The notes: a model not told the origin generated them from the letters alone. Shown: positions 9,617 through 40,511, counted from the first letter of the stretch. The stretch is DNA of 64,000 nucleotides from Candidatus Woesearchaeota archaeon (GCA_047602745.1 JBLKOJ010000001.1:7585-71584), one strand, 5' to 3'. Translations and numbers: made by a program.

Positions 9617-10171
9617 ATGGAATTATTTTTATATCTCATCCCAGCAGCACTTATCTTATGGATAATTATTGTGTACAATAGTTTAATATCTTTAAAAAAT
9701 CAAGTGCAGAACTCGTTTTCAGGAATTGATGTTCAATTAAAAAGAAGAAATGATTTAATACCAAATCTGGTAAATACCGTTAAAGGATATGCTACTCACG
9801 AACGAGAATTGTTTGAAAATATTACTCGACTTAGAATTTCAATAATGAACGCTTCAAATAACTCTGATGTGAAAGAACTTGCAAAAAATGACGATATGAT
9901 GACCAGTACATTAAAAAGTCTTTTTGCAGTATCAGAGAATTATCCTGATTTAAAAGCAAATGAAAACTTCTTAAACTTACAAAACCAAATTGCAAGAACA
10001 GAAGACCAAATTGCAGCTTCAAGAAGAATTTATAATAATAATGTAATGACATTTAATTCCAAAATTCAAGTGTTTCCAAATAATCTTGTAGCACAAACTT
10101 TAAGCTTTAAAGAGTTTGATTTTTTCAGTATTCAAGAAAACGAGAAAGTAAATCCTAATGTAGAACTATAA
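9617..10171 (+). CDS. lemA: LemA family membrane protein
   Basis: N-terminal TM helix followed by YNSLISLKNQVQNSFSGIDVQLKRRNDLIPNLV, the typical LemA N-terminal signature. Length 184 aa. Confidence 0.8.
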   Translation: MELFLYLIPAALILWIIIVYNSLISLKNQVQNSFSGIDVQLKRRNDLIPNLVNTVKGYATHERELFENITRLRISIMNASNNSDVKELAKNDDMMTSTLKSLFAVSENYPDLKANENFLNLQNQIARTEDQIAASRRIYNNNVMTFNSKIQVFPNNLVAQTLSFKEFDFFSIQENEKVNPNVEL

Positions 10172-10173
10172 AA

Positions 10174-11214
10174 ATGGAATCTCAAATACAACAGCAACAA
10201 CAAAATCCTCAATTTTGGGATCCAACTGGAAAGCTTCCAAATTTAACTCAGTTAGAGCAAAATAATATAGTAATAAGAGATAAATCTCGATATTGGAGAG
10301 AAAATTTTTCAAAAATAAATCAGATATTTTACTCCATATATGTAAGTTCTTTTATACTCTTTAGTATCTTAATTATATTCTCACAAGCATTTGAATTATT
10401 TATTGCTTTTTTTTTTATATATTTTGTTATCATTGCAATATTTTATTCTGTACTTCATTCAAAACTCAAATCTCTTAAAAAAGATTTAGTTAAACTAGAA
10501 CTTGCAGAACATAAAAACTGGTTATATGAATCTGAAAAATCTCTTGAGTTGTATAGAAAGTATTATACGTTTTTTCCCGAAATTTTTAATTTAGGGGAAA
10601 AATACCAAAACATTGAAGACATATTCTGGGGAAATATTACAAGAAATTCAGTCAATCATTCTTTTGTATCAGGATTATTCAATTATACATACACAGTAAC
10701 TCAAAGAACTAAAAACTCAACACGAAGAAGGGATGTCCATTGTTGTGATCACTTCTTTATTTTAAAACTTCCAAAAACAATTTCTTCACGATTTTATCTA
10801 TTTCCTAAAAATTTAATGAACAAATTTACAAATATGTTTACCAAGAAAAATATACAAACCGAATCATTAGAATTTAATAAACGATTTTCATTTTCTTATC
10901 AACAAAATGGAAGTGAAGTTCAAATTGATATCATGACCATACTCTCTCCTAGAGTCATTGAAGAACTCGTTAATTTCTCAAAATCAAAAGAGAAGAATAT
11001 GTTCTCAGGCCATGGGTCTTTAATTAATGGGCTTGAAGTTCTTTTCACACAAAACTGCGTAATTTTTCTAACTCCAGGGCCATTACTTAAAAAATTACAA
11101 GTTTCCATTTCTCCTAAAAGTCTTGAAATAAGTCAAGAAGAGGTAGCAGAAGTAGAGAAACTAATGAATTTTTATATTGATATCTCAACAGAAATTTCAA
11201 AATATTTAAATTAA
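10174..11214 (+). CDS. LemA-associated membrane protein (possibly DUF3137-like)
   Basis: Starts 3 nt after lemA. Contains two TM helices. LemA genes are commonly followed by DUF3137 or TPM-domain partners. Confidence 0.35.
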   Translation: MESQIQQQQQNPQFWDPTGKLPNLTQLEQNNIVIRDKSRYWRENFSKINQIFYSIYVSSFILFSILIIFSQAFELFIAFFFIYFVIIAIFYSVLHSKLKSLKKDLVKLELAEHKNWLYESEKSLELYRKYYTFFPEIFNLGEKYQNIEDIFWGNITRNSVNHSFVSGLFNYTYTVTQRTKNSTRRRDVHCCDHFFILKLPKTISSRFYLFPKNLMNKFTNMFTKKNIQTESLEFNKRFSFSYQQNGSEVQIDIMTILSPRVIEELVNFSKSKEKNMFSGHGSLINGLEVLFTQNCVIFLTPGPLLKKLQVSISPKSLEISQEEVAEVEKLMNFYIDISTEISKYLN

Positions 11215-21734: not shown

Positions 21735-22865
21735 ATGATAATTTCACAAATTACAGAAGAAAAATATTTACAAGAATGTAGAGAAATTGAAGAAAAATTT
21801 AAAGAAATTATCTCACGAGTGAATTTATCTTATCCTAAACCACTTAATTCTAAAGAAGAGCGTAAAAAATTCTTCAAAAAGCTTAAAGAAGGTAAAGTGT
21901 ATAACCCACAGTTCAAATATGAATTTAAACATGTTCCTGAAAAAGTAATTTTAGAATTGAAAGAATTTAAAGAAAAAATTCCTCTTAAAAATGATTATTA
22001 TGCCTTTAAACGACTCTTAAAACAAAAAGTACAAGAAGATATTTTACTACTTGAGTGCTATAAAACATGGGGGTCTCCTCTTTCAAGTCATTTTAATAAG
22101 CAATTATTTCAAACACCCTCACAACTTCTGCTTATTAAAGCAAAACTTTATTGTAGAAACTTCAAAAGAGAAAAAGTAAGATTTAAACGAATTGATAATA
22201 AAAAACTTGGAAAAGAACTTCAAAGAGAAGTTAAACGTCTAACAGGAGATAAACTCAAAGTTGTTCACAAAAAACTAGCAAATAAAATGAATATTATGGC
22301 TCGTCTTAAAACTGTTGAGATTAATCCCAGTGAGAGCTTTACAAGTTTAGACTTAAAACGGCTTAAAATTCATGAAATTGGAGTTCATTATATGAGATAT
22401 TACAATGCTAAACAACTTGCTCCTTTAGAACTCTTTCAAAGAGGTACTGATCATTATATTGCAACAGAAGAAGGTCTTGCAGTATATAGTGAAGAAAGGG
22501 CCAGAGTTCTCTCAAAAGCTCAAATGTATATTTATGCCGGAAGAGTTCTTGCAACCTATTATTCACAAAAAATGGACTTTTACACTCTTTATCATTACCT
22601 TAGAAAATTTAATTTTAAAGAGAATGATGCATTCTCACTTGCACTTAGAGCTAAAAGAAATATCTGTGATACTTCTCTAGAAGGGGGATACTCTAAAGAT
22701 TATATATATTTCAAAGGATATTATGATGTAAAAGCATTTGCAAAAAAACATAATATTAAACATCTCTTCTTTGGAAAATTCAAAATTGAAGATTATAAAT
22801 ATATAAAACCTTATATCCTTAAAGTTGAAGAACAAATTAAAACTATCTTTGATGAGGAATATTAA
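21735..22865 (+). CDS. DUF1704-family (QEGLA-motif, MATCAP-like) putative metallocarboxypeptidase
   Basis: HEIGVH (HExxH) motif with EEGLAVY downstream (the QEGLA-like motif of DUF1704). About 375 aa. Confidence 0.5.
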   Translation: MIISQITEEKYLQECREIEEKFKEIISRVNLSYPKPLNSKEERKKFFKKLKEGKVYNPQFKYEFKHVPEKVILELKEFKEKIPLKNDYYAFKRLLKQKVQEDILLLECYKTWGSPLSSHFNKQLFQTPSQLLLIKAKLYCRNFKREKVRFKRIDNKKLGKELQREVKRLTGDKLKVVHKKLANKMNIMARLKTVEINPSESFTSLDLKRLKIHEIGVHYMRYYNAKQLAPLELFQRGTDHYIATEEGLAVYSEERARVLSKAQMYIYAGRVLATYYSQKMDFYTLYHYLRKFNFKENDAFSLALRAKRNICDTSLEGGYSKDYIYFKGYYDVKAFAKKHNIKHLFFGKFKIEDYKYIKPYILKVEEQIKTIFDEEY

Positions 22866-24694: not shown

Positions 24695-25519
24695 TTATGT
24701 TTTATATATATCAAATAAGAAAGAATTAAATGATACTTCATCCCCTTTAATATAAGATAAGGAAATTTCTCTTTTTAAGTGTGAAATATCTTTTTGATTT
24801 GCATATTTTTTAAAAATACTCAGCCTTTTCTCAAAACTAATTTTAGATAATTCTTGATGTAAGGTAGATAAATCATTAAAAGTAAAGTTAAGTATTAATA
24901 TTTTTAAAACATATAACCAAGCTCTATAGTAGTTTTTCTCAGAATTGGGAACCCCTGAGTTAGTTTCTCCATATAAAGTTATAGTCGCTTCATTTTTTAC
25001 ATTATTGATAAAAACTGTAAGTTGTACTAATGTAGATTGAAGAGGATAATATAATACTTCTCCCAATAAGGTTAATATCTCATCATTCATAGTCTCAGAG
25101 TGTATTTTATTTCTAAAAAAATGAATAAATTCATGAAAGAAAAAAGCTTCTAATACCAATGGGTTTGTAGAGATTTCATTCTGGCAGATATCAGTATCTA
25201 CTAAAATTATAGGATGAGAATCATTGTCTAAAGCAAATCTACCTAAACCTTCTTGAATCACAAACTTAAAAGGAATATTACTATCTATATTAAAACATTT
25301 ATCAATATTAGTAAGAACTCTCCTAATTAATTCTACTAATTTATATAAAAATTGAGTTGATAAACTCATATTTCTAATCAATGAAAAAACGTAGATTCTA
25401 TTACTGTCAGAGAATAAAATATTATCTGTTATAATTTTATTCTTAACCAAGTCAATATTATATTTACTTAGATAAATAATATACTTATCTTCTTCATCTT
25501 TATTAATTAAAGTTATCAT
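24695..25519 (-). CDS. Hypothetical protein with an HExxH motif (FFFHEFIHFF), directly downstream of gyrB
   Basis: 274 aa with a zinc-metallopeptidase-like motif. The start abuts the gyrB stop. Confidence 0.4.
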   Translation of the reverse strand: MITLINKDEEDKYIIYLSKYNIDLVKNKIITDNILFSDSNRIYVFSLIRNMSLSTQFLYKLVELIRRVLTNIDKCFNIDSNIPFKFVIQEGLGRFALDNDSHPIILVDTDICQNEISTNPLVLEAFFFHEFIHFFRNKIHSETMNDEILTLLGEVLYYPLQSTLVQLTVFINNVKNEATITLYGETNSGVPNSEKNYYRAWLYVLKILILNFTFNDLSTLHQELSKISFEKRLSIFKKYANQKDISHLKREISLSYIKGDEVSFNSFLFDIYKT

Positions 25520-27417
25520 TATATATCTAATTCATCTACAAATTTAGCATTTTCAATAATAAAATCTTTTCTTGGTTCAACTTTATCTCCCATTAACATA
25601 GAGAAAATCTCATCTGCTTCAATAGCATCATCAATAGTTACTTTTTTCAAATGTCTTGTTTGAGGATCTAGTGTAGTCTCCCATAATTGATCAGGATTCA
25701 TCTCTCCTAAACCTTTATATCTTTGAATTTCAAATTTCTCATTTGAATGAGTAGTTCTATATTGTGTAAGTTGGTCTTCATCTTGAATCCAAATTTTCTT
25801 TTGCCCTTTTTTAATTCCATACAATGGAGGCATTGCAATATACACGTGACCTTTTAAAATTAATTCTCTGAAGTGTCTAAATAGTAATGTTAAAATTAAT
25901 GTTGCAATGTGAGAACCATCAATATCAGCATCCGCCATGATAATTACTTTGTGATATCTCAACTTCTCATAATCTACTTGTTCTCCAAATCCCATGCCTA
26001 GAGCAGTAATTAATGTTTTAATTTCTTCATTTTCAAGCATTTTTACTAGTCGTGCTTTTTCAACATTAAGCGGTTTTCCTCTAAGTGGTAAAATTGCTTG
26101 AGTCATTCTATCTCTTCCTTGTTTTGCTGAACCCCCCGCCGAGTCTCCCTCTACAATAAATAATTCAGCTTCTTTAGGGTCTCTAATTGAGCAATCAGCA
26201 AGTTTTCCTGGCATTGATGAAAAGTCCAAAGCTGATTTTCTTCTCACTAAATCTCTTGCTTTTTTAGCAGCTTCTCTTGCTTTATTTGCACTTAGTGATT
26301 TTTCAATAATTGCTTGAGCGGCTTTAGGATTCTCATCTAAATACATATAAATTTTTTCAAAAAAGACTTGTTGCACAATTCCTTGGACTTCAGGATTTCC
26401 AAGTTTATCTTTAGTTTGTCCTTCAAATTGTGGCTCTGGAACTCTCACTGAAACAATTGCAGTGATTCCCTCTCTCACATCTTCTCCTGTAAGTGCTACT
26501 TTTTTATCCGCAGCTTTTCCATTGACATTGAGATAATCTTTAATTGCTTTAGTAATTGAGAGTTTAAATCCACTAATATGTGTCCCACCACCTGGTGTTG
26601 TTACGTTATTTACAAATCCTTCAATAACTTCATTAAATGAGTTTGTATAAGTAAGTGCGATATCTACTTCTACATCATCTTTTTCACCAGTTACAAAAAT
26701 AGTATCTTTAATAATTTTCTTGGAATTTTGAGTAATTTCATCTACATATTGAGCAATTCCTCCTTCAAAATGAAATACTTCTTCAATCATTTCTTCGGGT
26801 CGTTCATCTCTAAAAATAATTGTGACATTAGGATTTAAGAATGCAAATTCTCTGTACTTTTTACGCATAGTTTTATAATCATATTCAATAGTTTGAAAAA
26901 TAGTATCATCTGCTAAAAATGTTACTCTTGTACCCGTTTGTTTAGTGAGTCCAATTTCTTGCAATCCTTTTCTTGCTTTTTGATTTTCAAACTCAAGCAA
27001 ATATTCTTTTCCATTTTTATGAATCTCAACTTTCATCCATTTTGATAGAGCATTTACTACACTTGAACCTACTCCGTGAAGACCTCCTGAAACTTTATAT
27101 GAACCTTTATCAAACTTACCTCCTGCATGAAGAACTGTAAAAATAATTTCTGCAGCTGACTTTCCTTTGGAGTGTGCATCAACTGGAACACCTCTTCCAT
27201 TATCTCCAACACTTACAGAATTATCTTTGTGGATAGTAATATCAATTTTATCACAGTGTCCCGCTAAAGCTTCATCCATTGCATTATCTACCAACTCTTT
27301 TACTAAATGATGAAGACCATTAATTCCTGTCCCTCCAATATACATTCCAGGTCTTTTCCTCACTGCTTCAAGACCTTCTAAAACTTTAATATTTTTTGCT
27401 CCATAATCCTCTGACAT
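25519..27417 (-). CDS. gyrB: DNA gyrase subunit B
   Basis: Full GHKL ATPase and TOPRIM motifs (LHAGGKFD, GLHGVGSSVVNALS, EGDSAGGSAKQGRDR, PLRGKPLNVEKA, DADIDGSHI). 632 aa. Confidence 0.92.
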   Translation of the reverse strand: MSEDYGAKNIKVLEGLEAVRKRPGMYIGGTGINGLHHLVKELVDNAMDEALAGHCDKIDITIHKDNSVSVGDNGRGVPVDAHSKGKSAAEIIFTVLHAGGKFDKGSYKVSGGLHGVGSSVVNALSKWMKVEIHKNGKEYLLEFENQKARKGLQEIGLTKQTGTRVTFLADDTIFQTIEYDYKTMRKKYREFAFLNPNVTIIFRDERPEEMIEEVFHFEGGIAQYVDEITQNSKKIIKDTIFVTGEKDDVEVDIALTYTNSFNEVIEGFVNNVTTPGGGTHISGFKLSITKAIKDYLNVNGKAADKKVALTGEDVREGITAIVSVRVPEPQFEGQTKDKLGNPEVQGIVQQVFFEKIYMYLDENPKAAQAIIEKSLSANKAREAAKKARDLVRRKSALDFSSMPGKLADCSIRDPKEAELFIVEGDSAGGSAKQGRDRMTQAILPLRGKPLNVEKARLVKMLENEEIKTLITALGMGFGEQVDYEKLRYHKVIIMADADIDGSHIATLILTLLFRHFRELILKGHVYIAMPPLYGIKKGQKKIWIQDEDQLTQYRTTHSNEKFEIQRYKGLGEMNPDQLWETTLDPQTRHLKKVTIDDAIEADEIFSMLMGDKVEPRKDFIIENAKFVDELDI

Positions 27418-30071: not shown

Positions 30072-30986
30072 ATGAAAATAGTTAATAAAGGAAGTAGAGG
30101 TGAATATTTATCTTTACAAACACAACAATTAAAGTCTCAAAGTTTAGGAATTTTAAAAAATGAGATAGTGCAAAAAATATTACATTCAATTAGACATATT
30201 GAAAAGTATCCTAAACAAATTGCAAAAGAATTAAAAATTCATGAACAAAATATTTATTATTATATTAAAAAATTAGAAAAACATAACATTATCTCCCTTC
30301 AAAGAACTGAAGATATTAATGGCACAAATGCACAATTTTACAAATTACGCTCTGCTTCATTTTTTGTTCAATTTGATGAATTTGAAAAAGGAAGAGTAGA
30401 TAAGGAAAAAGTATCGTCTTATTTTGATAATTTTATTGTTGATGGGAAACTAAATGCTATAATTGTAGTAGGAAGTCCTGAACCACATGGACCTAATAAT
30501 GCAGTTGCAAAAGATGGGTATTTTGGAATGAGCTTTTGTTTATTTTTAGGAAGTTATCTCTCATCTCTAAATAATTTACAAGTAAAACTTGATACCCAGA
30601 TTACTGAGCAAGATTTAAAAGAGAATAATATTATTTCAATTGGAGGATTTATTGTAAACTCCATTACTGAAAAATTAAATAAAAAATCTCCAATAGTAAT
30701 GACTAAAGAGAAAACTGTCATTTCTTCTATTTCAAATAAAGTGTATAATGACACTAATATTGGCGTAGTTTCTAAATTTAAAAATCCATATAATAAGAGA
30801 AAAGAAGTACTCATAATATCAGGAATTGGAATTAAAGGAACTCAAACCGGAGTACTTTCATTTCTACATCATTTTGAACAAATAGAAAGAGGAAATACTA
30901 CAAATGACAAATTTAAATGTAATGTCTTTCAAGGAAAAGATTATTATTCAAGAGGAGAAATTAGTAAAATTGATGTATTGGAGTAA
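30072..30986 (+). CDS. Winged-helix transcriptional regulator (TrmB-like architecture)
   Basis: N-terminal wHTH (ILHSIRHIEKYPKQIAKELKIHEQNIYYYIKKLEKHNII) plus a ~200-aa C-terminal domain. Confidence 0.4.
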   Translation: MKIVNKGSRGEYLSLQTQQLKSQSLGILKNEIVQKILHSIRHIEKYPKQIAKELKIHEQNIYYYIKKLEKHNIISLQRTEDINGTNAQFYKLRSASFFVQFDEFEKGRVDKEKVSSYFDNFIVDGKLNAIIVVGSPEPHGPNNAVAKDGYFGMSFCLFLGSYLSSLNNLQVKLDTQITEQDLKENNIISIGGFIVNSITEKLNKKSPIVMTKEKTVISSISNKVYNDTNIGVVSKFKNPYNKRKEVLIISGIGIKGTQTGVLSFLHHFEQIERGNTTNDKFKCNVFQGKDYYSRGEISKIDVLE

Positions 30987-34092: not shown

Positions 34093-35562
34093 TTATCTTC
34101 TATCTTGAGTGTTTGAAACAATTCCACATTCTCTATAAAAATCTCCTTGAGGCATAATTTCAACATACTGCTCAAAATTAAAATTACTAACAATAGGTGA
34201 ATTTGAAACTTCAAAGGTTAATAGTTCGGTAAATAACTGTTGAATTTTCTCTTGAGAAGTTTGTTTTCGTAATTGGTCCATCTCTTCTTCTTGTCTTGAT
34301 TCAAATCTATTAAATGTATGAACATTTTGTAGGGCTTCTAATGTTTCTTCACTTTGCTTAGTCAATTCAACATCATTTATATTTGAATATGAATTTATGA
34401 AACTCATCGCACTTTCAATTGAAGGGTTATCTATAATATTTTCCATTTCTTGAAACTGTGCTTGTTGTCTACTTGTTGGTTCAATTTCTAATCCAGGATA
34501 ATAAAAAACTGCTCTCATTTCTTCAAGTATACTTTGAATCTCTCTTTGATCCATATGATCAAAAACCATATTTGAGACTCCGTATATTGAATAAAATAAT
34601 ATTGAACAACCCGCTATAGTTCCAACTACTGAAGCAGTTCCTAAAACACATGCTCCAGCCCCTTTTGCAAGAGAAAACACACCTCTTCCTGCTGCATAAA
34701 TTCCTCTTCTAACAGTCCTACTTACAACTGCTGCAGCTCCAACTCCAGCAGCTACATTTAAGGCACTTGGCTGAATTGCTTGGTATCTATATACTACATA
34801 ATTTTTCTCAGTTACTCTAAACTCACGAGTATACAAGGAGTTGAAATAATCAAAAATAGGAGTAATTTCATTTTTAATTTGGGTATCTAGAGAAGAGGAG
34901 TATATTCTATTTTCTAATTCTAGTCTCTGATTTTCTCCACCCCTTACATCTACATAAAATAAATTGGATAATTCTCTTGCATTTTCTCTTTCATCATTTC
35001 TTTCTCTAGGAATTTCATCTTCCATAAATGAACCTAGATTTTTATATCTAAATGACTCTCTATTACTTGAATCTACATTTTCAAATTCAATTTCTGCACA
35101 TACAAAACAATATGAACCTTCTCTTTGCGAGTAATCTAAAAATCGTAATTCTCCTGAACCATATCTTCTATTACATCTTAATGCAGCATCAGACAATCTA
35201 GAAAATACATATTCTTCGTCAGTATGTTCAAATATCAAAAATTCAGTCCTACAATATTGTGGAAGTCGTCCAAAGAATGTTTGTTCAGCTACTGCTAATT
35301 GTTCAATCGTTGTTCCTGAGCGTGCTATAACTGAAGCAGAAGCTTCTAGATATATTCGACACGCAGCATCTTGAGAAGCAGTCACTAATTGTTCTCCTGT
35401 AGAACCTATTACATTTATCATAAGGACCAAGATTAAAATTGATATTAAAAATGAAGCTAATACGACTAAAGACATCGTTTGAGATTTTTTATTTTGTTGA
35501 TGAATTTTATCTATATGAGAACTTGTTTTATGAATTTGTATATTTTTAATTAGTTTTATCAT
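34093..35562 (-). CDS. Membrane-anchored hypothetical protein (489 aa) with a Gly/Ala-rich glycine-zipper-like hydrophobic region
   Basis: N-terminal TM (VVLASFLISILILVLMINVIG). Central ALNVAAGVGAAAVVS...GIYAAGRGVFSLAKGAGACVLGTASVVGTIAGCSILFY segment. Tightly coupled (6-nt gap) to the upstream 813-aa gene. Confidence 0.5.
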   Translation of the reverse strand: MIKLIKNIQIHKTSSHIDKIHQQNKKSQTMSLVVLASFLISILILVLMINVIGSTGEQLVTASQDAACRIYLEASASVIARSGTTIEQLAVAEQTFFGRLPQYCRTEFLIFEHTDEEYVFSRLSDAALRCNRRYGSGELRFLDYSQREGSYCFVCAEIEFENVDSSNRESFRYKNLGSFMEDEIPRERNDERENARELSNLFYVDVRGGENQRLELENRIYSSSLDTQIKNEITPIFDYFNSLYTREFRVTEKNYVVYRYQAIQPSALNVAAGVGAAAVVSRTVRRGIYAAGRGVFSLAKGAGACVLGTASVVGTIAGCSILFYSIYGVSNMVFDHMDQREIQSILEEMRAVFYYPGLEIEPTSRQQAQFQEMENIIDNPSIESAMSFINSYSNINDVELTKQSEETLEALQNVHTFNRFESRQEEEMDQLRKQTSQEKIQQLFTELLTFEVSNSPIVSNFNFEQYVEIMPQGDFYRECGIVSNTQDRR

Positions 35563-35568
35563 TGTTTA

Positions 35569-38010
35569 TTACCTCACATGTTCATCAATATTTGAATTTT
35601 CTAACAATATATCAAACTCATCATAAGAGAGTTCGATTGGAATTGTCTCTATTTGAATATTTCCTTGAGTATCCATTTTAGGAAAAATAAATTCTTTTCT
35701 AAGACTTAAGTCATTCTCATCTATTTCTCTTTCTATGTATTGTGTATTTATAGTAAGCAATGCAGGGGAATAAATAGTATTTCCATTTTCTAATTCTTTT
35801 TTTTCAAAAATAAGTCTATTTGTAGTTTTAGTTCTCAAATAAAATATAGTTTGATAATTTCCACTTATCTCACTTTGATGTGGAACTAATACAACATCAA
35901 AATTTTTAATTTCTTCTCTTACTTTTGAAGTTCTTAACTCTTGTGAATCATATATTGAGTATAGTAATTGTTCAAAAAAGAGTTCATATTCTATATTAAT
36001 ATTTTCATTTGGAAAATTAAAATTGACAACGTTTCTAGATCTACTTGGGTTTAATATATCATATGAAATTGCTGTATTAAGATCTACGATACTAAACTCT
36101 AAATGAGTTAATTTAATATCTGAATTTGGATATATTTCACCATTAATTCTCTCTATTTGAGGGGTCATAAACATTGTATTTAAAATGTAGTCTTGTGAAT
36201 TAATTTCAATTTGAGGATTAAATTTTCCAGGATTATTAAACTCATCAATTAAAGTAAAATATGAAAAAAATGAAGGTTGTAAAACATTACTTGTTCTTCT
36301 ATTACTTGCTAACACTTTAGGTGTAAGATATACTTCAAAGTTTGGGTGTAATATATTATCAAATAAATACTGATGAATTTCTAATTCTATTAAATTTAAA
36401 TGTTCACATCTTCTATTTCTAAAAATAATATAAGGGCAATTTGCTTGAACTTTGTTTAGTTCATTAAAAGGGAGAATTCTATCTCCAAGTCTAAATTCTA
36501 AACTCCCAAGACTATTTCGATGAAGTAAAAAATCATGCTCATCTTTAACTACATAAAACCCTCTATGTTGGGTGTCCTGAGTATGAATATAAAAAGCTAA
36601 TTGTTGTCGTCTTTGCTGCTGAGAATTTTGAGTGTTAAATTCAATAATATAATTACATAGAGAATTCTCATCAATAGTAATTTGATCTCTAGAAATACTA
36701 CACTCCTGAGTAGGCGGTAAATTTGGTCGCTCATAGAAAAAGTTTTCTTCTGTATTTGCATTTACGTATTGAACTATCGTTTCATCAGGAACTCTTTGAA
36801 AAAAATCAAAAAAATTAAACTGGTTATTTGTAATAAATCTATCCTCTTCTTCTAAGTCTTTAATTTCAATCTCTAAAGATGCTTTTTCAGGAGGAAACAT
36901 ATTTGAAAAAAATTCACCACAAAATGAGATAAATGATTCTTTAATTTCTTCTCTTCTCTCATTTAATCCTAAAGAAAATATATATGAAGTTTGAGAATCT
37001 TGTCTAAGTTCTTGGCAAAAATTTCTCTCACCTAAATATTCACTTCCACATTGATACCCCGAATTCCAATAAATATTACTTCTAATTCTCATATCTTCTC
37101 TAGAATCACCTTCAAATTCAACAAATGCAGTACACATTATTCCTTTTGTATTAAGAGGAGAGTTGGGATTATCTGGACTTAATTGATCAGTAAAAGATGC
37201 AATATTACATGTATTTAATATACTCAATTCATCAGCATTTGTAATTAATGGACCAAAATAATTTCCTTGATATGATACAAATCCAAAAGAGTATAAATTT
37301 CTATCCCATGTATTTGTTGGAACATCCCTTCCTAATCTCTCGTTTATACTATTTAATAAATTCTCATGAAACCTACTTCCTGGTTTTAATACAAAATCAT
37401 TTCCTTCTCTTACTAAATATGAAATATGATATCCTGATTTAGAATCTCCAAAAAATACATTTGAAGATCTTATGAGTAATGAGGATTCGTATATCCCACT
37501 TGGAATTAAAAAAATAATATTTACATCATCATCTTGCGAAATCGAATTATCTATAGTAAAAGAACGCATATCTATAGAATTCGCAAATAAACGATTATTA
37601 AACGAATTAAAATCTGAATCTAACTCTCTTGCAACTAATCTTTGATAATCTTCATACGTTATTAATCCTGCATATTCTGAAGTGATTACTATTACATAAG
37701 AATCCCTATTTGATTCCATGATTTGAGGATTTGCTAAATAAGATAACTTTAATTCTTCCATGCATTGTATACTTGAACTCTCAACTCGTTCATCCATATA
37801 ATCAACAAAATCCACAATACTATAAACAACATCCATTGCAACATCTCGATTATAATCTTCAACTTGAAATATATTATAAATTGGTAAAATAACTAAAAGT
37901 AAAAATGCAATACCAATGAGCATTTGAAGAAGAATAAAATTTGGAATGTCTGTTACTTGAGACTTTTTATATTTGCAATAAGTATCAAAATATTCTTTAA
38001 AAGATAACAT
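35569..38010 (-). CDS. Large membrane-anchored Cys-rich hypothetical protein (813 aa), likely surface-exposed
   Basis: Single N-terminal TM (FILLQMLIGIAFLLLVILPIY). Large N/S/Y/C-containing ectodomain. No catalytic motifs recognised. Confidence 0.5.
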   Translation of the reverse strand: MLSFKEYFDTYCKYKKSQVTDIPNFILLQMLIGIAFLLLVILPIYNIFQVEDYNRDVAMDVVYSIVDFVDYMDERVESSSIQCMEELKLSYLANPQIMESNRDSYVIVITSEYAGLITYEDYQRLVARELDSDFNSFNNRLFANSIDMRSFTIDNSISQDDDVNIIFLIPSGIYESSLLIRSSNVFFGDSKSGYHISYLVREGNDFVLKPGSRFHENLLNSINERLGRDVPTNTWDRNLYSFGFVSYQGNYFGPLITNADELSILNTCNIASFTDQLSPDNPNSPLNTKGIMCTAFVEFEGDSREDMRIRSNIYWNSGYQCGSEYLGERNFCQELRQDSQTSYIFSLGLNERREEIKESFISFCGEFFSNMFPPEKASLEIEIKDLEEEDRFITNNQFNFFDFFQRVPDETIVQYVNANTEENFFYERPNLPPTQECSISRDQITIDENSLCNYIIEFNTQNSQQQRRQQLAFYIHTQDTQHRGFYVVKDEHDFLLHRNSLGSLEFRLGDRILPFNELNKVQANCPYIIFRNRRCEHLNLIELEIHQYLFDNILHPNFEVYLTPKVLASNRRTSNVLQPSFFSYFTLIDEFNNPGKFNPQIEINSQDYILNTMFMTPQIERINGEIYPNSDIKLTHLEFSIVDLNTAISYDILNPSRSRNVVNFNFPNENINIEYELFFEQLLYSIYDSQELRTSKVREEIKNFDVVLVPHQSEISGNYQTIFYLRTKTTNRLIFEKKELENGNTIYSPALLTINTQYIEREIDENDLSLRKEFIFPKMDTQGNIQIETIPIELSYDEFDILLENSNIDEHVR

Positions 38011-38160
38011 ATATAATACTAATTATCAGTTTGTAATCTTTAAATATATTATCTGTCATTACGTTTAGGATACATCATAGATAGTGTGAGTTTACCATGG
38101 CTTTAACAATTTAATTTACAATAATTCAATTTTGTAATAATTTAATTCTAGTACTGAGTC

Positions 38161-38182
38161 CTTGATTTCTACTGGAAACTGA
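38161..38182. repeat. Left arm of an imperfect inverted repeat (CTTGATTTCTACTGGAAACTGA), ORB-like
   Basis: Reverse complement of 40095..40116 is CTTAATTTCTACTGGAAATGAC (18/22 match; core ATTTCTACTGGAAA identical). Confidence 0.6.
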
Positions 38183-38338
38183 TTTGATGAGAATAGACTA
38201 AATAATTAGAGTTTGAATATACAGTATTAATTTTTGAATGTCTAATTTTAGATTTTGAATACATAAAATTATAATTTAAATATCAAATATATGATACTAG
38301 ATTTTAAGTGAGTAAAGTTTAAATTTGAAGATAAAAAG

Positions 38339-38983
38339 CTATAGTTTAAATAAATAATCTTTAATAATATTAAAATGAAATGTTTGTTTTTCTTTATTTT
38401 CTTCATTAATAGCTGTAATATATTGTTTTTGTATAGATTTGATAGTATATTTAATTCCTTTTATTTGAACTATATCTTTGGGTTTTAAATTATATATTGC
38501 AGCAAGAAGAGAGTGTCTATATAAGTCCTTACCTTTTAGCTTATTTCTTCCCATGATTTTTTTAGAATGCGTAAATATGCAAAAAAAATGTTCATTGATG
38601 ACTCTTTTAAGCTTGTGAATATCATTAATGTTGGCTAAATAGATATCAAACCCATCCAGATTGTCTTCTATTTTATTAATTAATAATTTAACATTTCTTA
38701 AAATATATTTAAGTTTAAAGTATGCTAAATCATACTCTGATATTAATATTTCATTATATTTTATATCTTTGTTAGAATAAATTGTTTGAGTTGCTTTATT
38801 TTCATATAATAAATACGTCTGTTCTATCTCATTTAACTTTTTATTGATATCTTCTTTATTATAAAAATATAATCTAAATTGAACTCTGCATTCATAATAG
38901 TCATCATGCATTTTTTTACTAATTGGAGACATTTTCTGCTCCATTTCTAATTCCACTTGAAATGAATCTTTTATAATAACCAT
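38339..38983 (-). CDS. Hypothetical protein (214 aa) inside the inverted-repeat-bounded segment
   Basis: The only long ORF between the inverted repeats. No Walker motif or other recognised motif. Confidence 0.4.
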   Translation of the reverse strand: MVIIKDSFQVELEMEQKMSPISKKMHDDYYECRVQFRLYFYNKEDINKKLNEIEQTYLLYENKATQTIYSNKDIKYNEILISEYDLAYFKLKYILRNVKLLINKIEDNLDGFDIYLANINDIHKLKRVINEHFFCIFTHSKKIMGRNKLKGKDLYRHSLLAAIYNLKPKDIVQIKGIKYTIKSIQKQYITAINEENKEKQTFHFNIIKDYLFKL

Positions 38984-39284
38984 ATTTATATTTGTACCTT
39001 ATAATTTAAATTATTATTTATTATTTATAAATGATACTACTATTAATAACATTAATTTTTATCTATTAAATTTTTTATAGAGACTATATAAAGCGATATT
39101 ATAAATATGTCATAAGTAATCGTGAAAGAAATTTTACAAATAATATAATAAAATTATTAACATTAAAAAGAACTATAAAAATTTACAACTAATCATTAAT
39201 AATATTTTTATTAATATATTTAACTAATATTAATTTTTAAATTTTAAAGATAAAGTTAAAATCAAGTATTGATACTAACAACTT

Positions 39285-39313
39285 AAATCTAAATCTAAAT
39301 CTAAATCTAATCT
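39285..39313. repeat. Hexanucleotide microsatellite (AAATCT)x4 plus a partial unit
   Basis: Direct tandem repeat read from the sequence. Confidence 0.8.
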
Positions 39314-39399
39314 CAAAATTAAAAAATACTATTAAAAATACTATTGAAAATTTATAACTTAGAAATTTATCATATATATTTTAATATTTTATTTTGTGT

Positions 39400-39720
39400 T
39401 GTTTAATCTATTGTTTATTTAATTTTTTTTGCATTTATTTCAAATTTACTTTTATTTATTATTTTATCATATTTATTTTTATTTAAGTTCTATTTATATA
39501 TTGTATTATATTTGTTTCAATTTTTATTTATATTATACCAATATTTACATTTGAATTCGTACTTCTCTACTTTAAAGTCTATTTTTATTCTCACTTTATT
39601 TTTATATTTTTCTTATCTTTACTTTACTTCTTCCCTTATTATTTTTTAATCATTTATTATTTTTATATTACTTTACACCACATTTACATTCACATATTTA
39701 TTATTTATACTAAAAATAGT
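39400..39720. other. G-depleted, T/C-rich strand-asymmetric tract (about 2% G on the plus strand) with no ORF
   Basis: Manual base inspection finds only about 7 G in 300 nt, against about 10% C and 55% T. Confidence 0.5.
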
Positions 39721-39815
39721 GTTTTAATAATGTATTTATTTCTTTTGCAGATACATATTTGTTTAAATTATATCTAAATTAGTATATACAATTATAAGAC
39801 TATATTTAAGTTTAT

Positions 39816-40055
39816 TTAGACAAAATTTAGACAAGACTTAGAATTAAATCTCATTAATTTAAATTATTAAAATTTTAAAAATTCAACTTTAAAGTCTGAA
39901 TTCCCTACTTAAACTAAGGTTTCAAACAAATTTTAGTTGTTTAATATTACTTGTTTTTAGTTATTTCTAATTGTATATTTTATCATTTTAGACAAGTTTT
40001 AGACAATTATTAAACGAGTTTATTTTTATTTTAGACAAGTTTTAGACAATTATTA
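39816..40055. repeat. Iteron-like direct repeats, six copies of TTAGACAA, including two perfect 27-bp repeats (TTTTAGACAAGTTTTAGACAATTATTA at 39986..40012 and 40029..40055)
   Basis: Exact repeat coordinates read from the sequence. Copies at 39816, 39827, 39988, 39999, 40031 and 40042. Confidence 0.75.
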
Positions 40056-40094
40056 GAATTTTTCATTAAAATAAAACCATAAATTTTGTTTTTT

Positions 40095-40116
40095 GTCATT
40101 TCCAGTAGAAATTAAG
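40095..40116. repeat. Right arm of the inverted repeat (GTCATTTCCAGTAGAAATTAAG)
   Basis: Pairs with 38161..38182. The core TTCCAGTAGAAAT resembles the archaeal mini-ORB core (TTCCAGTGGAAAC) as I remember it. Confidence 0.6.
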
Positions 40117-40511
40117 GTCTTAGTCTTTTGTAAAAAATTTAAGAATTATTATTAAAGATATTATTTTATGAATTTGGTATTAATAAAATTCAAATTGAAA
40201 ATACGTAAGTTTATAAATATACTAATCATATATACATTAATTAGTTATAAGACTCTTTACTTAAGTGTCATATTGATTTGTTTGTGATTGCTATACATAT
40301 CTTTATAGGTAGGTTTAGATGGAAAAATTAAATTTACATGTTAAAAATATTAAATATTACATAAAATTTCAATCAAGTAGTTTATAGTTATTAACTATAG
40401 ATATAAAATGAAATTTGTGTGAGGATTAAGTTTAATTTTTCTAAGTGTATAAATAAAAGTAAACAAATTAAGAATATTAGGTAAAGATTTTTAAGCTTTT
40501 TTTAGGGAAAA

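What the first reader, a model, noticed from the sequence alone, without database searches (positions are those of the whole stretch)
34093..38010. Two-gene operon of large membrane-anchored, cysteine-rich proteins, one with a glycine-zipper-like segment; candidate cell-surface or host-interaction system
An 813-aa protein (N-terminal TM plus about 760 aa of Cys/Asn/Tyr-rich ectodomain) is followed, after a 6-nt gap, by a 489-aa protein. The second protein has an N-terminal TM and a central Gly/Ala-rich small-residue stretch (AAGVGAAAVV...AAGRGVFSLAKGAGACVLGTASVVGTIAGCSILFY) reminiscent of glycine-zipper membrane-insertion or pore-forming motifs. Neither protein has recognisable enzymatic motifs. 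For a small-genome, probably symbiotic DPANN-like archaeon, such a large fraction of coding capacity devoted to a surface pair suggests attachment to, or membrane manipulation of, a host cell. The operon lies immediately downstream of the inverted-repeat-bounded repeat region at 38161..40116.
Basis: inference. Interest (0 to 1): 0.65.

Follow-up and report, generated by a model that had tools for sequence, protein, structure and literature searches.

The report
Glycan-free pilin-anchored surface protein pair
Two adjacent genes of a tiny, probably host-dependent archaeon encode a conserved pair of outer-surface proteins that appear to be tethered like pilus subunits and kept free of sugar-attachment sites; relatives of the second protein sit next to bacterial-wall-degrading enzymes, so the pair is a concrete but unproven candidate for how these archaea engage another cell.

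Summary
ORFs of 813 aa (A, 35569-38010, minus) and 489 aa (B, 34093-35562, minus) lie 6 nt apart. Each has one N-terminal hydrophobic helix, and B has a central Gly/Ala-rich stretch. "Cysteine-rich" is overstated (1.4-1.6 %), but the cysteines are conserved.

Neither protein matches Pfam, NCBIfam, PDB sequences or PDB/BFVD folds.

The pair (NMD3 - A - B - nucleotide kinase) is syntenic in all 12 Woesearchaeota/Nanoarchaeia loci recovered. A and B diverge much faster than their neighbours.

Both families start with [KR][GAS] directly before the helix, which is the class III (type IV prepilin) signal pattern. Distant A-likes read KKG|FLALE.

Both families are specifically purged of N-x-S/T glycosylation sequons:
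- A family: 11 observed, 78 expected.
- B C-terminal half: 1 observed, 101 expected.
- Control motifs and the other 41 window ORFs: observed/expected 0.75-1.4.

B proteins carry 6 or 8 cysteines. These features point to an extracellular, disulfide-bonded location, including both flanks of the Gly/Ala stretch.

Shorter B homologues lie in archaeal type IV filament loci, directly after membrane-anchored peptidoglycan hydrolases.

Best reading: a pilin-like-anchored surface module that engages another cell's envelope. Membrane insertion by B is inferred, not shown. I rate it a new variant of a known kind.

The parts
35569..38010 (-). Gene A, 813 aa: pilin-like-anchored large ectodomain protein
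   Evidence: ORF. Homologues: P0002 at 49 %, L003 at 66 %, L005 at 30 %, L004 at 25 %. No Pfam or NCBIfam hit. 0 sequons against 9.6 expected.
37960..38010 (-). A residues 1-17: Lys-rich leader ending K-K-S, the putative class III signal-peptide cleavage site (KKS|QVTDIP)
   Evidence: Alignments. Close relatives read KKA|QTEIP, KKA|VLDIP, KKA|MLDLP. Distant A-likes read KKG|FLALES, RNG|LMALEA, KKG|LSFSLE. Cleavage itself is inferred.
37870..37941 (-). A residues 24-47: N-terminal hydrophobic helix
   Evidence: Kyte-Doolittle maximum of 2.86.
36316..37869 (-). A residues 48-565: conserved core shared with the ~520-530-aa A-like proteins of other Woesearchaeota/Nanoarchaeia
   Evidence: hhalign A2 against A6: probability 96 %, E 4.8e-9, A residues 23-564. 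Invariant C83, C268, C321, C332. Lys 1.9 %, Arg 6.4 %, net charge -38.
35572..36315 (-). A residues 566-813: C-terminal extension found only in the close clade
   Evidence: Alignment A7. No domain hit.
35571..35575 (-). GAGGT Shine-Dalgarno-like motif for B, overlapping the A stop codon
   Evidence: Read directly from the sequence. The spacer to the ATG is 9 nt.
34093..35562 (-). Gene B, 489 aa: pilin-like-anchored six-cysteine head with a Gly/Ala-rich and helical insertion
   Evidence: ORF. 8 close homologues. 185 cluster representatives at E<=1e-3 in the exhaustive HMMER search. No Pfam hit in 62 members.
35407..35487 (-). B residues 26-52: K-K-S|Q-T motif followed by the hydrophobic helix
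   Evidence: [KR][GAS] lies within -3..+4 residues of the helix start in 125 of 148 representatives.
34777..35406 (-). B residues 53-262: conserved alpha/beta ectodomain 'head' (C68, C104, C130, C152-x2-C155; R133-Y-G-x-G...F141; V257-Y258)
   Evidence: Invariant columns in A4 and in the short family A9. AF2 pLDDT is mostly 60-84 here.
34561..34770 (-). B residues 265-334: Gly/Ala-rich hydrophobic insertion with the C305/C319 pair and an R-rich loop (RTVRRGIYAAGRG)
   Evidence: AF2 pLDDT is below 35. The insertion is absent from minimal family members.
34177..34557 (-). B residues 336-462: acidic, Lys-poor, sequon-free helical region
   Evidence: AF2 helices 336-454 at low confidence. For residues 336-489 as computed: Lys 1.9 %, Arg 5.8 %, net charge -16. 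Sequon-free across the family.
34096..34176 (-). B residues 463-489: C-terminal closing motif FEQYVEIMPQGDFYRECG with invariant C479
   Evidence: The same Cys-bearing C-terminal strand occurs in the short family.
38039..38044 (-). TTTAAA, a possible archaeal TATA box about 30 nt upstream of the A ATG
   Evidence: Read from the sequence. Inference only; no promoter tool for archaea was available.

Best explanation
A and B are a co-transcribed, lineage-specific (Woesearchaeota/Nanoarchaeia) pair of extracellular, disulfide-bonded proteins. Each is held on the cell membrane by a type IV-prepilin-like N-terminus: a Lys-rich leader, a small residue at -1, then a hydrophobic helix.

A is a large, fast-evolving ectodomain protein. 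B is a six-cysteine alpha/beta head whose last strand and cysteine come from its own C-terminus. A Gly/Ala-rich hydrophobic segment, often carrying a cysteine pair, and a helical arm are inserted into the last loop of that head. Both proteins are kept free of N-glycosylation sites.

Proposed mechanism (inferred):
- The pair sits on, or is assembled by, a type IV filament-type machinery and forms the contact end of an apparatus that engages another cell's envelope.
- A occupies the gene position that in related archaeal loci is held by membrane-anchored peptidoglycan hydrolases, so A would provide binding or wall engagement.
- The hydrophobic Gly/Ala hairpin of B would provide membrane interaction.

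Shown here: gene reality, operon arrangement, conservation and synteny, the signal motif, the sequon purge, the cysteine pattern, and the genomic context of the homologues.

Inferred only: signal cleavage, extracellular assembly, physical A-B interaction, and envelope or membrane engagement.
For: Genes and operon.

Synteny: NMD3 - A - B - (ADK) - AAA_18 kinase occurs in all 12 related loci. A and B diverge faster than their neighbours. Against L004, NMD3 is 55 %, AAA_18 57 % and HAD 58 % identical, but A is 25 % and B 31 %.

Class III-like N-termini:
- [KR][GAS] abuts the helix in 125 of 148 B representatives.
- Distant A-likes read KKG|FLALES and RNG|LMALEA, with Glu at +5.
- In the window only A, B and two doubtful ORFs, out of 12 ORFs with an N-terminal hydrophobic stretch, show the pattern.

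Extracellular exposure:
- N-x-S/T counts: A family 11 observed against 78.4 expected; B after the Gly/Ala stretch 1 against 101.5; B head 59 against 111.6.
- In the two strongly depleted sets (A family, B C-terminal half) seven control motifs lie at 0.75-1.44. N-x-C is 0.23 and 1.99 on 1-17 counts; in the wide B family the conserved N-W-C motif enriches it in the head.
- The other 41 window ORFs show 93 observed against 98.4 expected.
- Cysteines per B protein number 6 or 8 in 58 of 62 members.
- Lys is 1.4-3.6 % in A 48-813, B 53-262 and B 336-489, against 18-21 % in the two N-terminal tails and a mean of 9.3 % in other ORFs.

The insertion starts and ends in the ectodomain: minimal family members lack it.

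Context of short B homologues:
- T2SSE ATPase in 15 loci.
- A ~720-aa 10-TM protein in 25 loci.
- Many [KR][GA]| pilin-like genes.
- A peptidoglycan-hydrolase domain detected by tblastn close upstream of B-like in 17 loci (SLT 12, glucosaminidase 4, VanY 1).

A T2SSE ATPase lies 4.3 kb from the A-B pair in Woesearchaeal locus L010.
Against: - No type IV filament ATPase, platform protein or prepilin peptidase lies in the 64-kb window. None was found within 10 kb in L008 or L011.
- No pilin Pfam or NCBIfam model matches.
- A shows no detectable homology to the hydrolase-bearing proteins at the same position (hhalign E 0.028) and has no catalytic domain.
- Strict synteny next to housekeeping genes and a putative origin fits a housekeeping role equally well.
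- In the wide family, charge distribution around the Gly/Ala segments fits a cytoplasmic location of the helical insert: +1.75 after region 1 and +1.0 before region 2. This conflicts with the sequon evidence.
- The structure model of A is useless (pLDDT 31.6). The model of B is poor in exactly the Gly/Ala region.
- There are no expression, processing or localisation data.
Confidence: 0.5

Rival explanations
1. A and B form a housekeeping envelope module for the archaeon's own cell, for example an anchor or scaffold for its surface layer, envelope biogenesis or division. On this view it has nothing specifically to do with a host.
For: The gene position is invariant (NMD3 - A - B - adenylate/AAA_18 kinase) across relatives as distant as 20-25 % identity, next to a putative replication origin. 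Only one copy was seen per locus. No toxin, adhesin or enzyme domain was found.
Against: A and B evolve about twice as fast as the flanking housekeeping genes. From general knowledge, archaeal surface-layer proteins are usually glycosylated and cysteine-poor, whereas these are sequon-free with conserved cysteines. Short B homologues sit in type IV filament loci beside peptidoglycan hydrolases, which have no substrate in an archaeal envelope.
Confidence: 0.25
2. B is a polytopic membrane protein. The Gly/Ala-rich segments are ordinary tightly packed transmembrane helices and the helical insert is cytoplasmic. B would then act as a transmembrane coupler or accessory of a filament machine, not as a membrane-attacking element.
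For: In the wide family the flanks follow the positive-inside rule. Net charges are +2.25 before TM1, -1.1 after TM1, +1.75 after region 1, +1.0 before region 2 and -2.0 after region 2, and the insert is 17 % Lys+Arg. Region 1 is hydrophobic enough for membrane helices. Such a 'TM - domain - TM' insertion would still begin and end outside.
Against: N-x-S/T is absent from exactly this insert: 0 observed against 66 expected in 9030 residues, and 1 against 101.5 when the C-terminus is included. Control motifs are normal. Selection against sequons has no known reason in a permanently cytoplasmic domain. In the window's clade the insert is acidic, Lys-poor like the ectodomains, and lacks the second hydrophobic segment. 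Paired cysteines inside region 1 occur in 33 of 62 members, which suggests an oxidising environment.
Confidence: 0.15
3. A and B are structural subunits (major or minor pilins) that polymerise into a filament, with no separate membrane-active role.
For: The N-termini are class III-like, including G|FLALE-type motifs. Homologues occur among clusters of small pilin-like genes.
Against: At 813 and 489 aa they are far larger than filament-forming archaeal pilins (general knowledge). A hydrophobic insertion and a C-terminus that folds back into the head are not pilin features. No pilin model matches. No assembly genes lie nearby in the window.
Confidence: 0.07
4. The ORFs are chance open frames or pseudogenes in AT-rich DNA.
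For: Nothing beyond the general abundance of long ORFs in AT-rich sequence.
Against: Full-length homologues at 25-66 % identity show conserved cysteines, motifs and gene order in independent assemblies.
Confidence: 0.01

Closest known systems
Archaeal class III signal-peptide (type IV prepilin-like) surface proteins, including non-pilin cargo such as the Sulfolobales 'bindosome' sugar-binding proteins (reviewed in bioRxiv 10.64898/2026.04.22.720090)
   Same: They share a Lys/Arg-rich leader, a small residue at -1 and a hydrophobic helix immediately after it. They carry large functional C-terminal domains. Their genes can lie away from the filament assembly locus.
   Different: There is no sequence or HMM similarity to any described pilin or binding-protein family. 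B has a hydrophobic Gly/Ala insertion and a C-terminus that closes the head. Both families avoid glycosylation sites, whereas (general knowledge) archaeal pilins and archaellins are typically glycosylated. Processing was not shown.
Archaeal type IV filament (TFF) loci: T2SSE-family ATPase, polytopic platform protein, pilins and accessory proteins
   Same: Short B homologues are embedded in loci of this type. The T2SSE ATPase scores E 1e-12 to 1e-15. A ~720-aa 10-TM protein and many [KR][GA]| small proteins are present.
   Different: The window's A-B pair stands alone beside NMD3 and kinases. The 10-TM protein matches no Pfam platform model. A peptidoglycan hydrolase fused to a membrane anchor directly before B-like was not mentioned in the passages of the TFF survey that I read.
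Large extracellular lytic-transglycosylase proteins of Woesearchaeota/Pacearchaeota and their lineage-specific module of unknown families (Castelle et al. 2021, PMC8204110)
   Same: The lineages are the same, and so is the idea that surface proteins engage bacterial cell walls. A and B are plausibly among the unnamed lineage-specific families.
   Different: A and B themselves carry no transglycosylase domain. Only the neighbours of distant B homologues do. The paper does not describe this pair.
Class I viral fusion proteins with internal, disulfide-bounded fusion loops followed by helical repeats (recalled from memory: filovirus GP2, avian retrovirus TM; paramyxovirus F appeared among weak hits)
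   Same: A Gly/Ala/Val/Ile/Thr-rich hydrophobic segment, often bracketed by two cysteines, is followed by a long helical region. Profile hits to the F0 fusion-peptide/HRA region, to S2 and to HA2 have E 0.01-0.3.
   Different: The hits are not significant, and the best ones are designed coiled coils, so they reflect composition. There is no fold match in PDB or BFVD. Heptad periodicity is weak (median z 1.1). The anchor is N-terminal and pilin-like. No relatives occur on viral contigs.
Glycine-zipper membrane proteins and pore formers (Pfam Gly-zipper families, C19orf12-like)
   Same: Repeated [GAS]xxx[GAS]xxx[GAS] spacing occurs in 57 of 62 members.
   Different: Only sub-threshold HMM hits were found, in 1-2 of 62 members (E about 0.02). 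The membrane location of the segment is unresolved.

Membership tests
Class III signal-peptide / type IV prepilin-like proteins | Short positively charged leader ending in [KR]-[GAS], immediately followed by a ~20-residue hydrophobic helix | tested here: met
   A reads KKS|QVTDIPNFILLQMLIGIAFLLLVIL and B reads KKS|QTMSLVVLASFLISILILVLM. 125 of 148 B representatives have the motif within -3..+4 residues of the helix start. Distant A-likes read KKG|FLALES and RNG|LMALEA.
Class III signal-peptide / type IV prepilin-like proteins | Cleavage by a dedicated prepilin peptidase (PibD/FlaK/EppA, Peptidase_A24) encoded in the genome | not testable with these tools
   Only 64 kb of the genome is available. 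None of the window ORFs scanned matched Peptidase_A24. The rest of the MAG could not be searched.
Class III signal-peptide / type IV prepilin-like proteins | Match to a curated pilin or archaellin N-terminal model | tested here: not met
   A and B have no Pfam or NCBIfam hit. No pilin model appears among the 25 most frequently matched families shown for the 62 B-family members.
Type IV filament (TFF) system component | Encoded with a T2SSE-family ATPase and a polytopic platform protein | tested here: inconclusive
   Not met in the window or in L008 and L011. Met for short B homologues: ATPase in 15 loci and the 10-TM protein in 25 loci. A T2SSE ATPase lies 4.3 kb from the pair in L010.
Glycine-zipper membrane or pore-forming proteins | Repeated small-xxx-small motifs within a membrane-spanning helix, and membership of a Gly-zipper HMM family | tested here: inconclusive
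   The motif is present in 57 of 62 members. HMM hits are only sub-threshold (PF13488 E 0.026, PF20721 E 0.019). Membrane spanning is unresolved, because charge and sequon evidence disagree.
Class I viral fusion proteins | Significant sequence or fold similarity to a fusion subunit; strong heptad repeats forming a trimeric hairpin | tested here: not met
   PDB profile hits have E 0.01-0.3 only. Foldseek best E is 0.76 (PDB) and 0.73 (BFVD). Heptad score median z is 1.1.
Archaeal S-layer proteins | S-layer domain models; typically many N-glycosylation sites and few cysteines (the second part is from general knowledge) | tested here: not met
   No S-layer model hit. A has 0 sequons against 9.6 expected and B has 0 against 4.1. 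Cysteines are conserved and even in number.
Peptidoglycan hydrolase-bearing anchor proteins found upstream of short B homologues | SLT, glucosaminidase or VanY/M15 catalytic domain, or homology of the N-terminal domain | tested here: not met
   A has no such domain. hhalign of the A family against the N-domains of those proteins gives E 0.028 and probability 1.8 %. tblastn with the catalytic domains finds nothing in the window.

The most novel reading that the evidence does not exclude
B is the membrane-active subunit of a previously unrecognised archaeal cell-cell penetration or fusion device. It would be a pilin-anchored, disulfide-locked head carrying a (often disulfide-stapled) Gly/Ala-rich 'internal fusion loop' and a helical arm that must stay glycan-free because it refolds or inserts. 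A would be its target-binding or wall-engaging partner. On this reading Woesearchaeota/Nanoarchaeia use the pair to open a conduit into their host. That would be the molecular basis of the DPANN-host cytoplasmic connections that have been seen by microscopy but never explained genetically.
Probability: 0.15. Interest if true: 0.9.

Novelty: new variant of a known kind. Interest (0 to 1): 0.6.

Why it matters
How ultra-small DPANN archaea attach to other cells and draw resources from them is an open question, and most of their lineage-specific genes have no function.

This work turns two 'hypothetical proteins' into a defined, testable module with these properties:
- It is conserved across Woesearchaeota/Nanoarchaeia.
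- Its anchors appear pilin-like.
- It is extracellular by several independent sequence signatures.
- It is evolutionarily linked to type IV filament loci that carry bacterial-wall hydrolases.

The near-total, motif-specific absence of N-glycosylation sites is an unusual evolutionary signal. It can serve as a topology marker and as a handle for experiments, for example re-introducing sequons.

If the membrane-active reading is right, the pair would be the first candidate machinery for DPANN-host envelope breaching. If the housekeeping reading is right, it is still an uncharacterised core envelope component of a major archaeal lineage.

Tried and rejected
Domain and sequence searches:
- Pfam and NCBIfam on A and B: nothing.
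- Pfam on 62 B-family members: only noise.
- PDB sequence searches with profiles A1, A2 and A4: no significant natural homologue. The A4 hits to fusion proteins are compositional.

Structure:
- AlphaFold2 of B gave mean pLDDT 55, with only the head usable.
- Foldseek against PDB and BFVD found no match.

Homologue searches:
- A word-indexed search with an A-family profile found no further A homologues.
- Viral contig scans for B relatives found none, so a viral origin was rejected.

Ideas tested and dropped or left open:
- Homology between A and the hydrolase-bearing proteins upstream of short B homologues is not significant.
- The coiled-coil claim for B's insert has only weak support from a crude heptad test, so I call it a helical arm.
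- A thioredoxin-like reading of the W-C-x-x-C motif was rejected. The motif is modelled in a beta-strand and no Trx model hits.
- Topology from the positive-inside rule contradicts the sequon evidence. This is left unresolved and reported as such.
- Rfam on 33-41 kb: nothing.
- Literature searches found no description of these two families.

Full report
**Observation.** The window is very AT-rich (GC 18-36 % per 2 kb). It encodes archaeal housekeeping genes: class I LysRS, GatE, family B DNA polymerase, an NMD3-like protein and gyrase. Database copies of both proteins are annotated as 'Candidatus Woesearchaeota archaeon' MAG proteins.

The two ORFs are exactly as described: A at 35569-38010 (-) with 813 aa, and B at 34093-35562 (-) with 489 aa. 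The A stop codon (TAA, 35569-35571) is followed after 6 nt by the B ATG. A GAGG motif lies 9 nt upstream of that ATG. A TTTAAA box lies about 30 nt upstream of the A ATG (inference).

Hydropathy shows one strong N-terminal hydrophobic helix in each protein. B also has a weaker small-residue hydrophobic region at aa 265-334. Cysteine content is only 1.4 % and 1.6 % against 0.9 % background, so 'cysteine-rich' is an overstatement.

**No known family.** Pfam and NCBIfam return nothing for either protein. Profile searches of PDB sequences are negative.

The model of B has mean pLDDT 55. It shows a moderately confident alpha/beta head (aa 60-260, block means mostly 60-84) and a very low-confidence Gly/Ala region. 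Foldseek against PDB and BFVD finds nothing. Other fold libraries were unavailable.

**Conservation and synteny.** The word-indexed search finds one homologue of A and seven of B. Their contigs all carry the same arrangement: NMD3-like gene, A, B, AAA_18-type nucleotide kinase, HAD hydrolase. One subclade has an extra Sec-signal 175-aa protein between A and B.

An exhaustive HMMER search with the B profile finds 185 cluster representatives at E<=1e-3 and 58 at E<=1e-30. These are ~500-aa proteins and a shorter ~220-340-aa class.

Six further genome loci, all from Woesearchaeota/Nanoarchaeia-type MAGs, again show a ~520-530-aa protein directly upstream of the B-like gene, with overlapping or adjacent ORF boundaries. 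Where the contig extends upstream, NMD3 precedes that protein. Profile-profile comparison shows that these upstream proteins are homologous to residues 23-564 of A (probability 96 %, E 4.8e-9). The last ~250 residues of A are therefore a clade-specific extension.

tblastn over all loci confirms NMD3 - A - B - (adenylate kinase) - AAA_18 kinase throughout. It also shows that A and B diverge much faster than their neighbours. Against L004, NMD3 is 55 %, AAA_18 57 % and HAD 58 % identical, but A is 25 % and B 31 %.

**Anchors.** Both proteins, and nearly all relatives, have a Lys/Arg-rich leader ending in [KR]-[GAS] immediately before the hydrophobic helix. This holds for 125 of 148 B representatives, with the putative cleavage point within -3 to +4 residues of the helix start. 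Distant A-likes read KKG|FLALES, RNG|LMALEA and KKG|LSFSLETL, which is the canonical type IV prepilin pattern with Glu at +5.

Among 12 window ORFs with an N-terminal hydrophobic stretch, only A, B and two doubtful cases show the pattern. This is the defining sequence feature of class III signal peptides. Cleavage itself and the peptidase could not be tested.

**Architecture of B.** Across 62 long members, C68, C104, C152 and C479 are invariant. C130, C155, R133-Y-G-x-G, F141, V257-Y258 and the C-terminal Q-Y-V...R-x-C-G motif are nearly invariant. The short family keeps the same six cysteines and the same Cys-bearing C-terminal strand.

The Gly/Ala-rich stretch lies between the last core strand and that C-terminal strand. 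It varies in length and is absent in minimal members. It is therefore an insertion into a loop of the head, and it begins and ends on the same side as the head.

Its composition is G 18 %, A 18 %, V 12 %, I 10 %, T 8 %, L 8 %. 57 of 62 members contain [GAS]xxx[GAS]xxx[GAS]. The stretch contains either no cysteine (24 members) or exactly two (33 members, median spacing 14). Total cysteines per protein are 6 or 8 in 58 of 62 members. Even, conserved cysteine counts are the classical signature of disulfide-bonded extracytoplasmic proteins.

Long members add a ~170-180-aa helical, Lys/Glu-rich region and usually a second short Gly-rich hydrophobic segment before the C-terminal motif. The window's clade lacks the second segment and its insert is acidic. 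A crude heptad test gives only weak support for a coiled coil (median z 1.1).

**Sequon purge (new observation).** A has no N-x-S/T sequon although 9.3 % of its residues are Asn (9.6 expected from shuffles). B has none either (4.1 expected). The counts across the families are:

| Sequence set | N-x-S/T observed | Expected |
|---|---|---|
| A family (10 proteins) | 11 | 78.4 |
| B after the Gly/Ala stretch, 60 long members (12,807 residues) | 1 | 101.5 |
| B head | 59 | 111.6 |
| Helical insert alone, wide family | 0 | 66.4 |
| Other 41 window ORFs | 93 | 98.4 |

In the A family and the B C-terminal half, the control motifs [ST]-x-N, Q-x-[ST], D-x-[ST], N-[ST], N-x-x-[ST], N-x-[AG] and N-x-[DE] lie at observed/expected 0.75-1.44.

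Other exported or membrane proteins nearby are not depleted. The simplest reading is that these polypeptides, including both flanks of the Gly/Ala stretch, are exposed to the oligosaccharyltransferase on the outer face of the membrane and that glycosylation is selected against.

In the window's clade a second signature agrees. Lys is 1.4-3.6 % and Arg 4.8-10.5 % in A 48-813, B 53-262 and B 336-489. The two N-terminal tails have Lys 18-21 % and no Arg, and the other ORFs average Lys 9.3 % and Arg 3.6 %.

Against this, the flanking charges in the wide family follow the positive-inside rule as if the insert were cytoplasmic. I could not resolve this conflict, and it is the basis of one rival explanation.

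**Context of distant homologues.** Short B-like proteins lie in clusters of small proteins that all begin with [KR][GA]| plus a helix, for example KRG|LTLLEFV. A metagenome scan returned 49 loci. The long contigs are archaeal (RadA E 3.5e-90, RPA, SRP54). They show a conserved order:
- a T2SSE-family ATPase (E 5e-12 to 1.4e-15);
- a ~720-aa protein with 9-10 transmembrane helices;
- pilin-like genes;
- a membrane-anchored peptidoglycan hydrolase;
- B-like;
- four more single-helix proteins.

By tblastn, a hydrolase domain lies close upstream of B-like in 17 loci (SLT 12, glucosaminidase 4, VanY/M15 1). The 10-TM protein occurs in 25 loci and the ATPase in 15. None of these is in the window. 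One Woesearchaeal locus has a T2SSE ATPase 4.3 kb from the pair.

Three unrelated wall-degrading domains in the same slot indicate that this position serves to attack bacterial murein, which archaea lack. A occupies that slot in Woesearchaeota but has no hydrolase domain and no detectable homology to those proteins.

Published work reports that Woesearchaeota and Pacearchaeota share lineage-specific families of unknown function and large extracellular lytic-transglycosylase proteins, suggesting bacterial hosts (PMC8204110). A 2026 survey of archaeal type IV filament systems notes that class III signal-peptide proteins can act as non-pilin cargo encoded away from the machinery. Neither text, in the passages I read, describes this pair.

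**Mechanism.** Taken together, the best-supported explanation is a pilin-like-anchored, disulfide-bonded, glycan-free surface module. It is inherited vertically in this lineage and derived from, or serviced by, a type IV filament system.

By position and association it is likely to engage another cell's envelope. The large variable ectodomain of A would be the binding or wall-engaging part, and the hydrophobic insertion of B the membrane-interacting part. The surface location rests on four independent sequence signatures. The envelope-engaging role rests on guilt by association. Membrane insertion is conjecture.

Resemblance to internal fusion loops of class I viral fusion proteins is compositional only. 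PDB hits have E 0.01-0.3 and the best hits are designed coiled coils. There is no fold match and there are no viral relatives.

**Verdict.** The pair is best classed as a new variant of a known kind: class III-signal, type IV filament-associated surface proteins. It has an unusual and well-supported sequon-avoidance signature. It also offers a plausible but unproven link to host envelope breaching.

Noticed in passing
window 38153-40124 (arms 38153-38178 and 40099-40124); also L001 8422-8432/9881-9891, L005 539-549/2235-2245: Probable replication origin directly upstream of gene A. Two exact inverted copies of TTTCCAGTAGAAAT, which resemble archaeal origin-recognition boxes as I recall them, flank the NMD3-like gene and a 1.1-kb non-coding stretch of GC 12-17 %. 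GC skew changes sign and reaches its cumulative minimum at about 40.0 kb. Gene orientation also flips there. The same motif pair flanks NMD3 in two related contigs. No Orc1/Cdc6 gene was looked for.
   Followed up: partly
A and B families; window 34093-38010 and loci L001-L012: There is a near-total, motif-specific absence of N-x-S/T glycosylation sequons. The A family has 11 against 78 expected, and the B C-terminal half has 1 against 101 expected. In those two sets the control motifs lie at observed/expected 0.75-1.44, and the other window ORFs are normal. This conflicts with a positive-inside charge pattern around the B insert in the wide family.
   Followed up: yes
window 34093-38010 versus the other 41 ORFs: In this clade only, the presumed external parts of A and B have Lys 1.4-3.6 % and Arg 4.8-10.5 %. 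Elsewhere in the window Lys averages 9.3 % and Arg 3.6 %, and the two N-terminal tails have Lys 18-21 %. Distant A-likes (L008, L010, L011) do not show this. It may be an adaptation of exposed proteins to the habitat; from memory, Lys-to-Arg replacement is reported for secreted proteins of alkaliphiles.
   Followed up: partly
loci L013, L019-L067 (e.g. L022 5072-12948, L026 914-13561, L041 97-13007): There is a conserved archaeal type IV filament-like locus with this order: T2SSE ATPase, an unannotated ~720-aa 10-TM protein, pilin-like genes, a membrane-anchored peptidoglycan hydrolase (SLT, glucosaminidase or VanY, interchangeably), short B-like, more pilin-like genes, then RPA and RadA. The locus as a whole seems worth a study of its own.
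   Followed up: partly
L004 3218-3748 and L006 1151-1678: One subclade has an extra ~175-aa protein with a classical Sec signal peptide (cleavage around AQE) inserted between A and B. It has no family hit and is not sequon-depleted.
   Followed up: no
window 3556-5336 and 6542-7372: A DpnII-type restriction-modification cluster is present. It comprises a DpnII endonuclease (E 5e-91), a D12-class N6-adenine methyltransferase (E 8e-67) and a second N6_N4 methyltransferase nearby (E 4e-64).
   Followed up: no
window 21735-22865 (+): A 376-aa protein matches the MATCAP family (microtubule-associated tyrosine carboxypeptidase, PF08014, E 3e-37). This is an unexpected family name in a DPANN archaeon.
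   Followed up: no
window 30072-30986 (+): A 304-aa protein combines a helix-turn-helix region with a match to the 'S-layer like family, outer domain' (PF05124, E 4.5e-10). This is an odd combination.
   Followed up: no
window 25519-27417 (-) and 58815-61250 (-): Bacterial-type DNA gyrase B and A subunits are encoded about 31 kb apart on the same strand.
   Followed up: no
window 9617-11214 (+): A LemA family protein (E 2e-55) is immediately followed by a DUF3137 membrane protein. Both are comparatively rich in N-x-S/T sequons (1.6 and 2.3 per 100 aa), in contrast to A and B.
   Followed up: no
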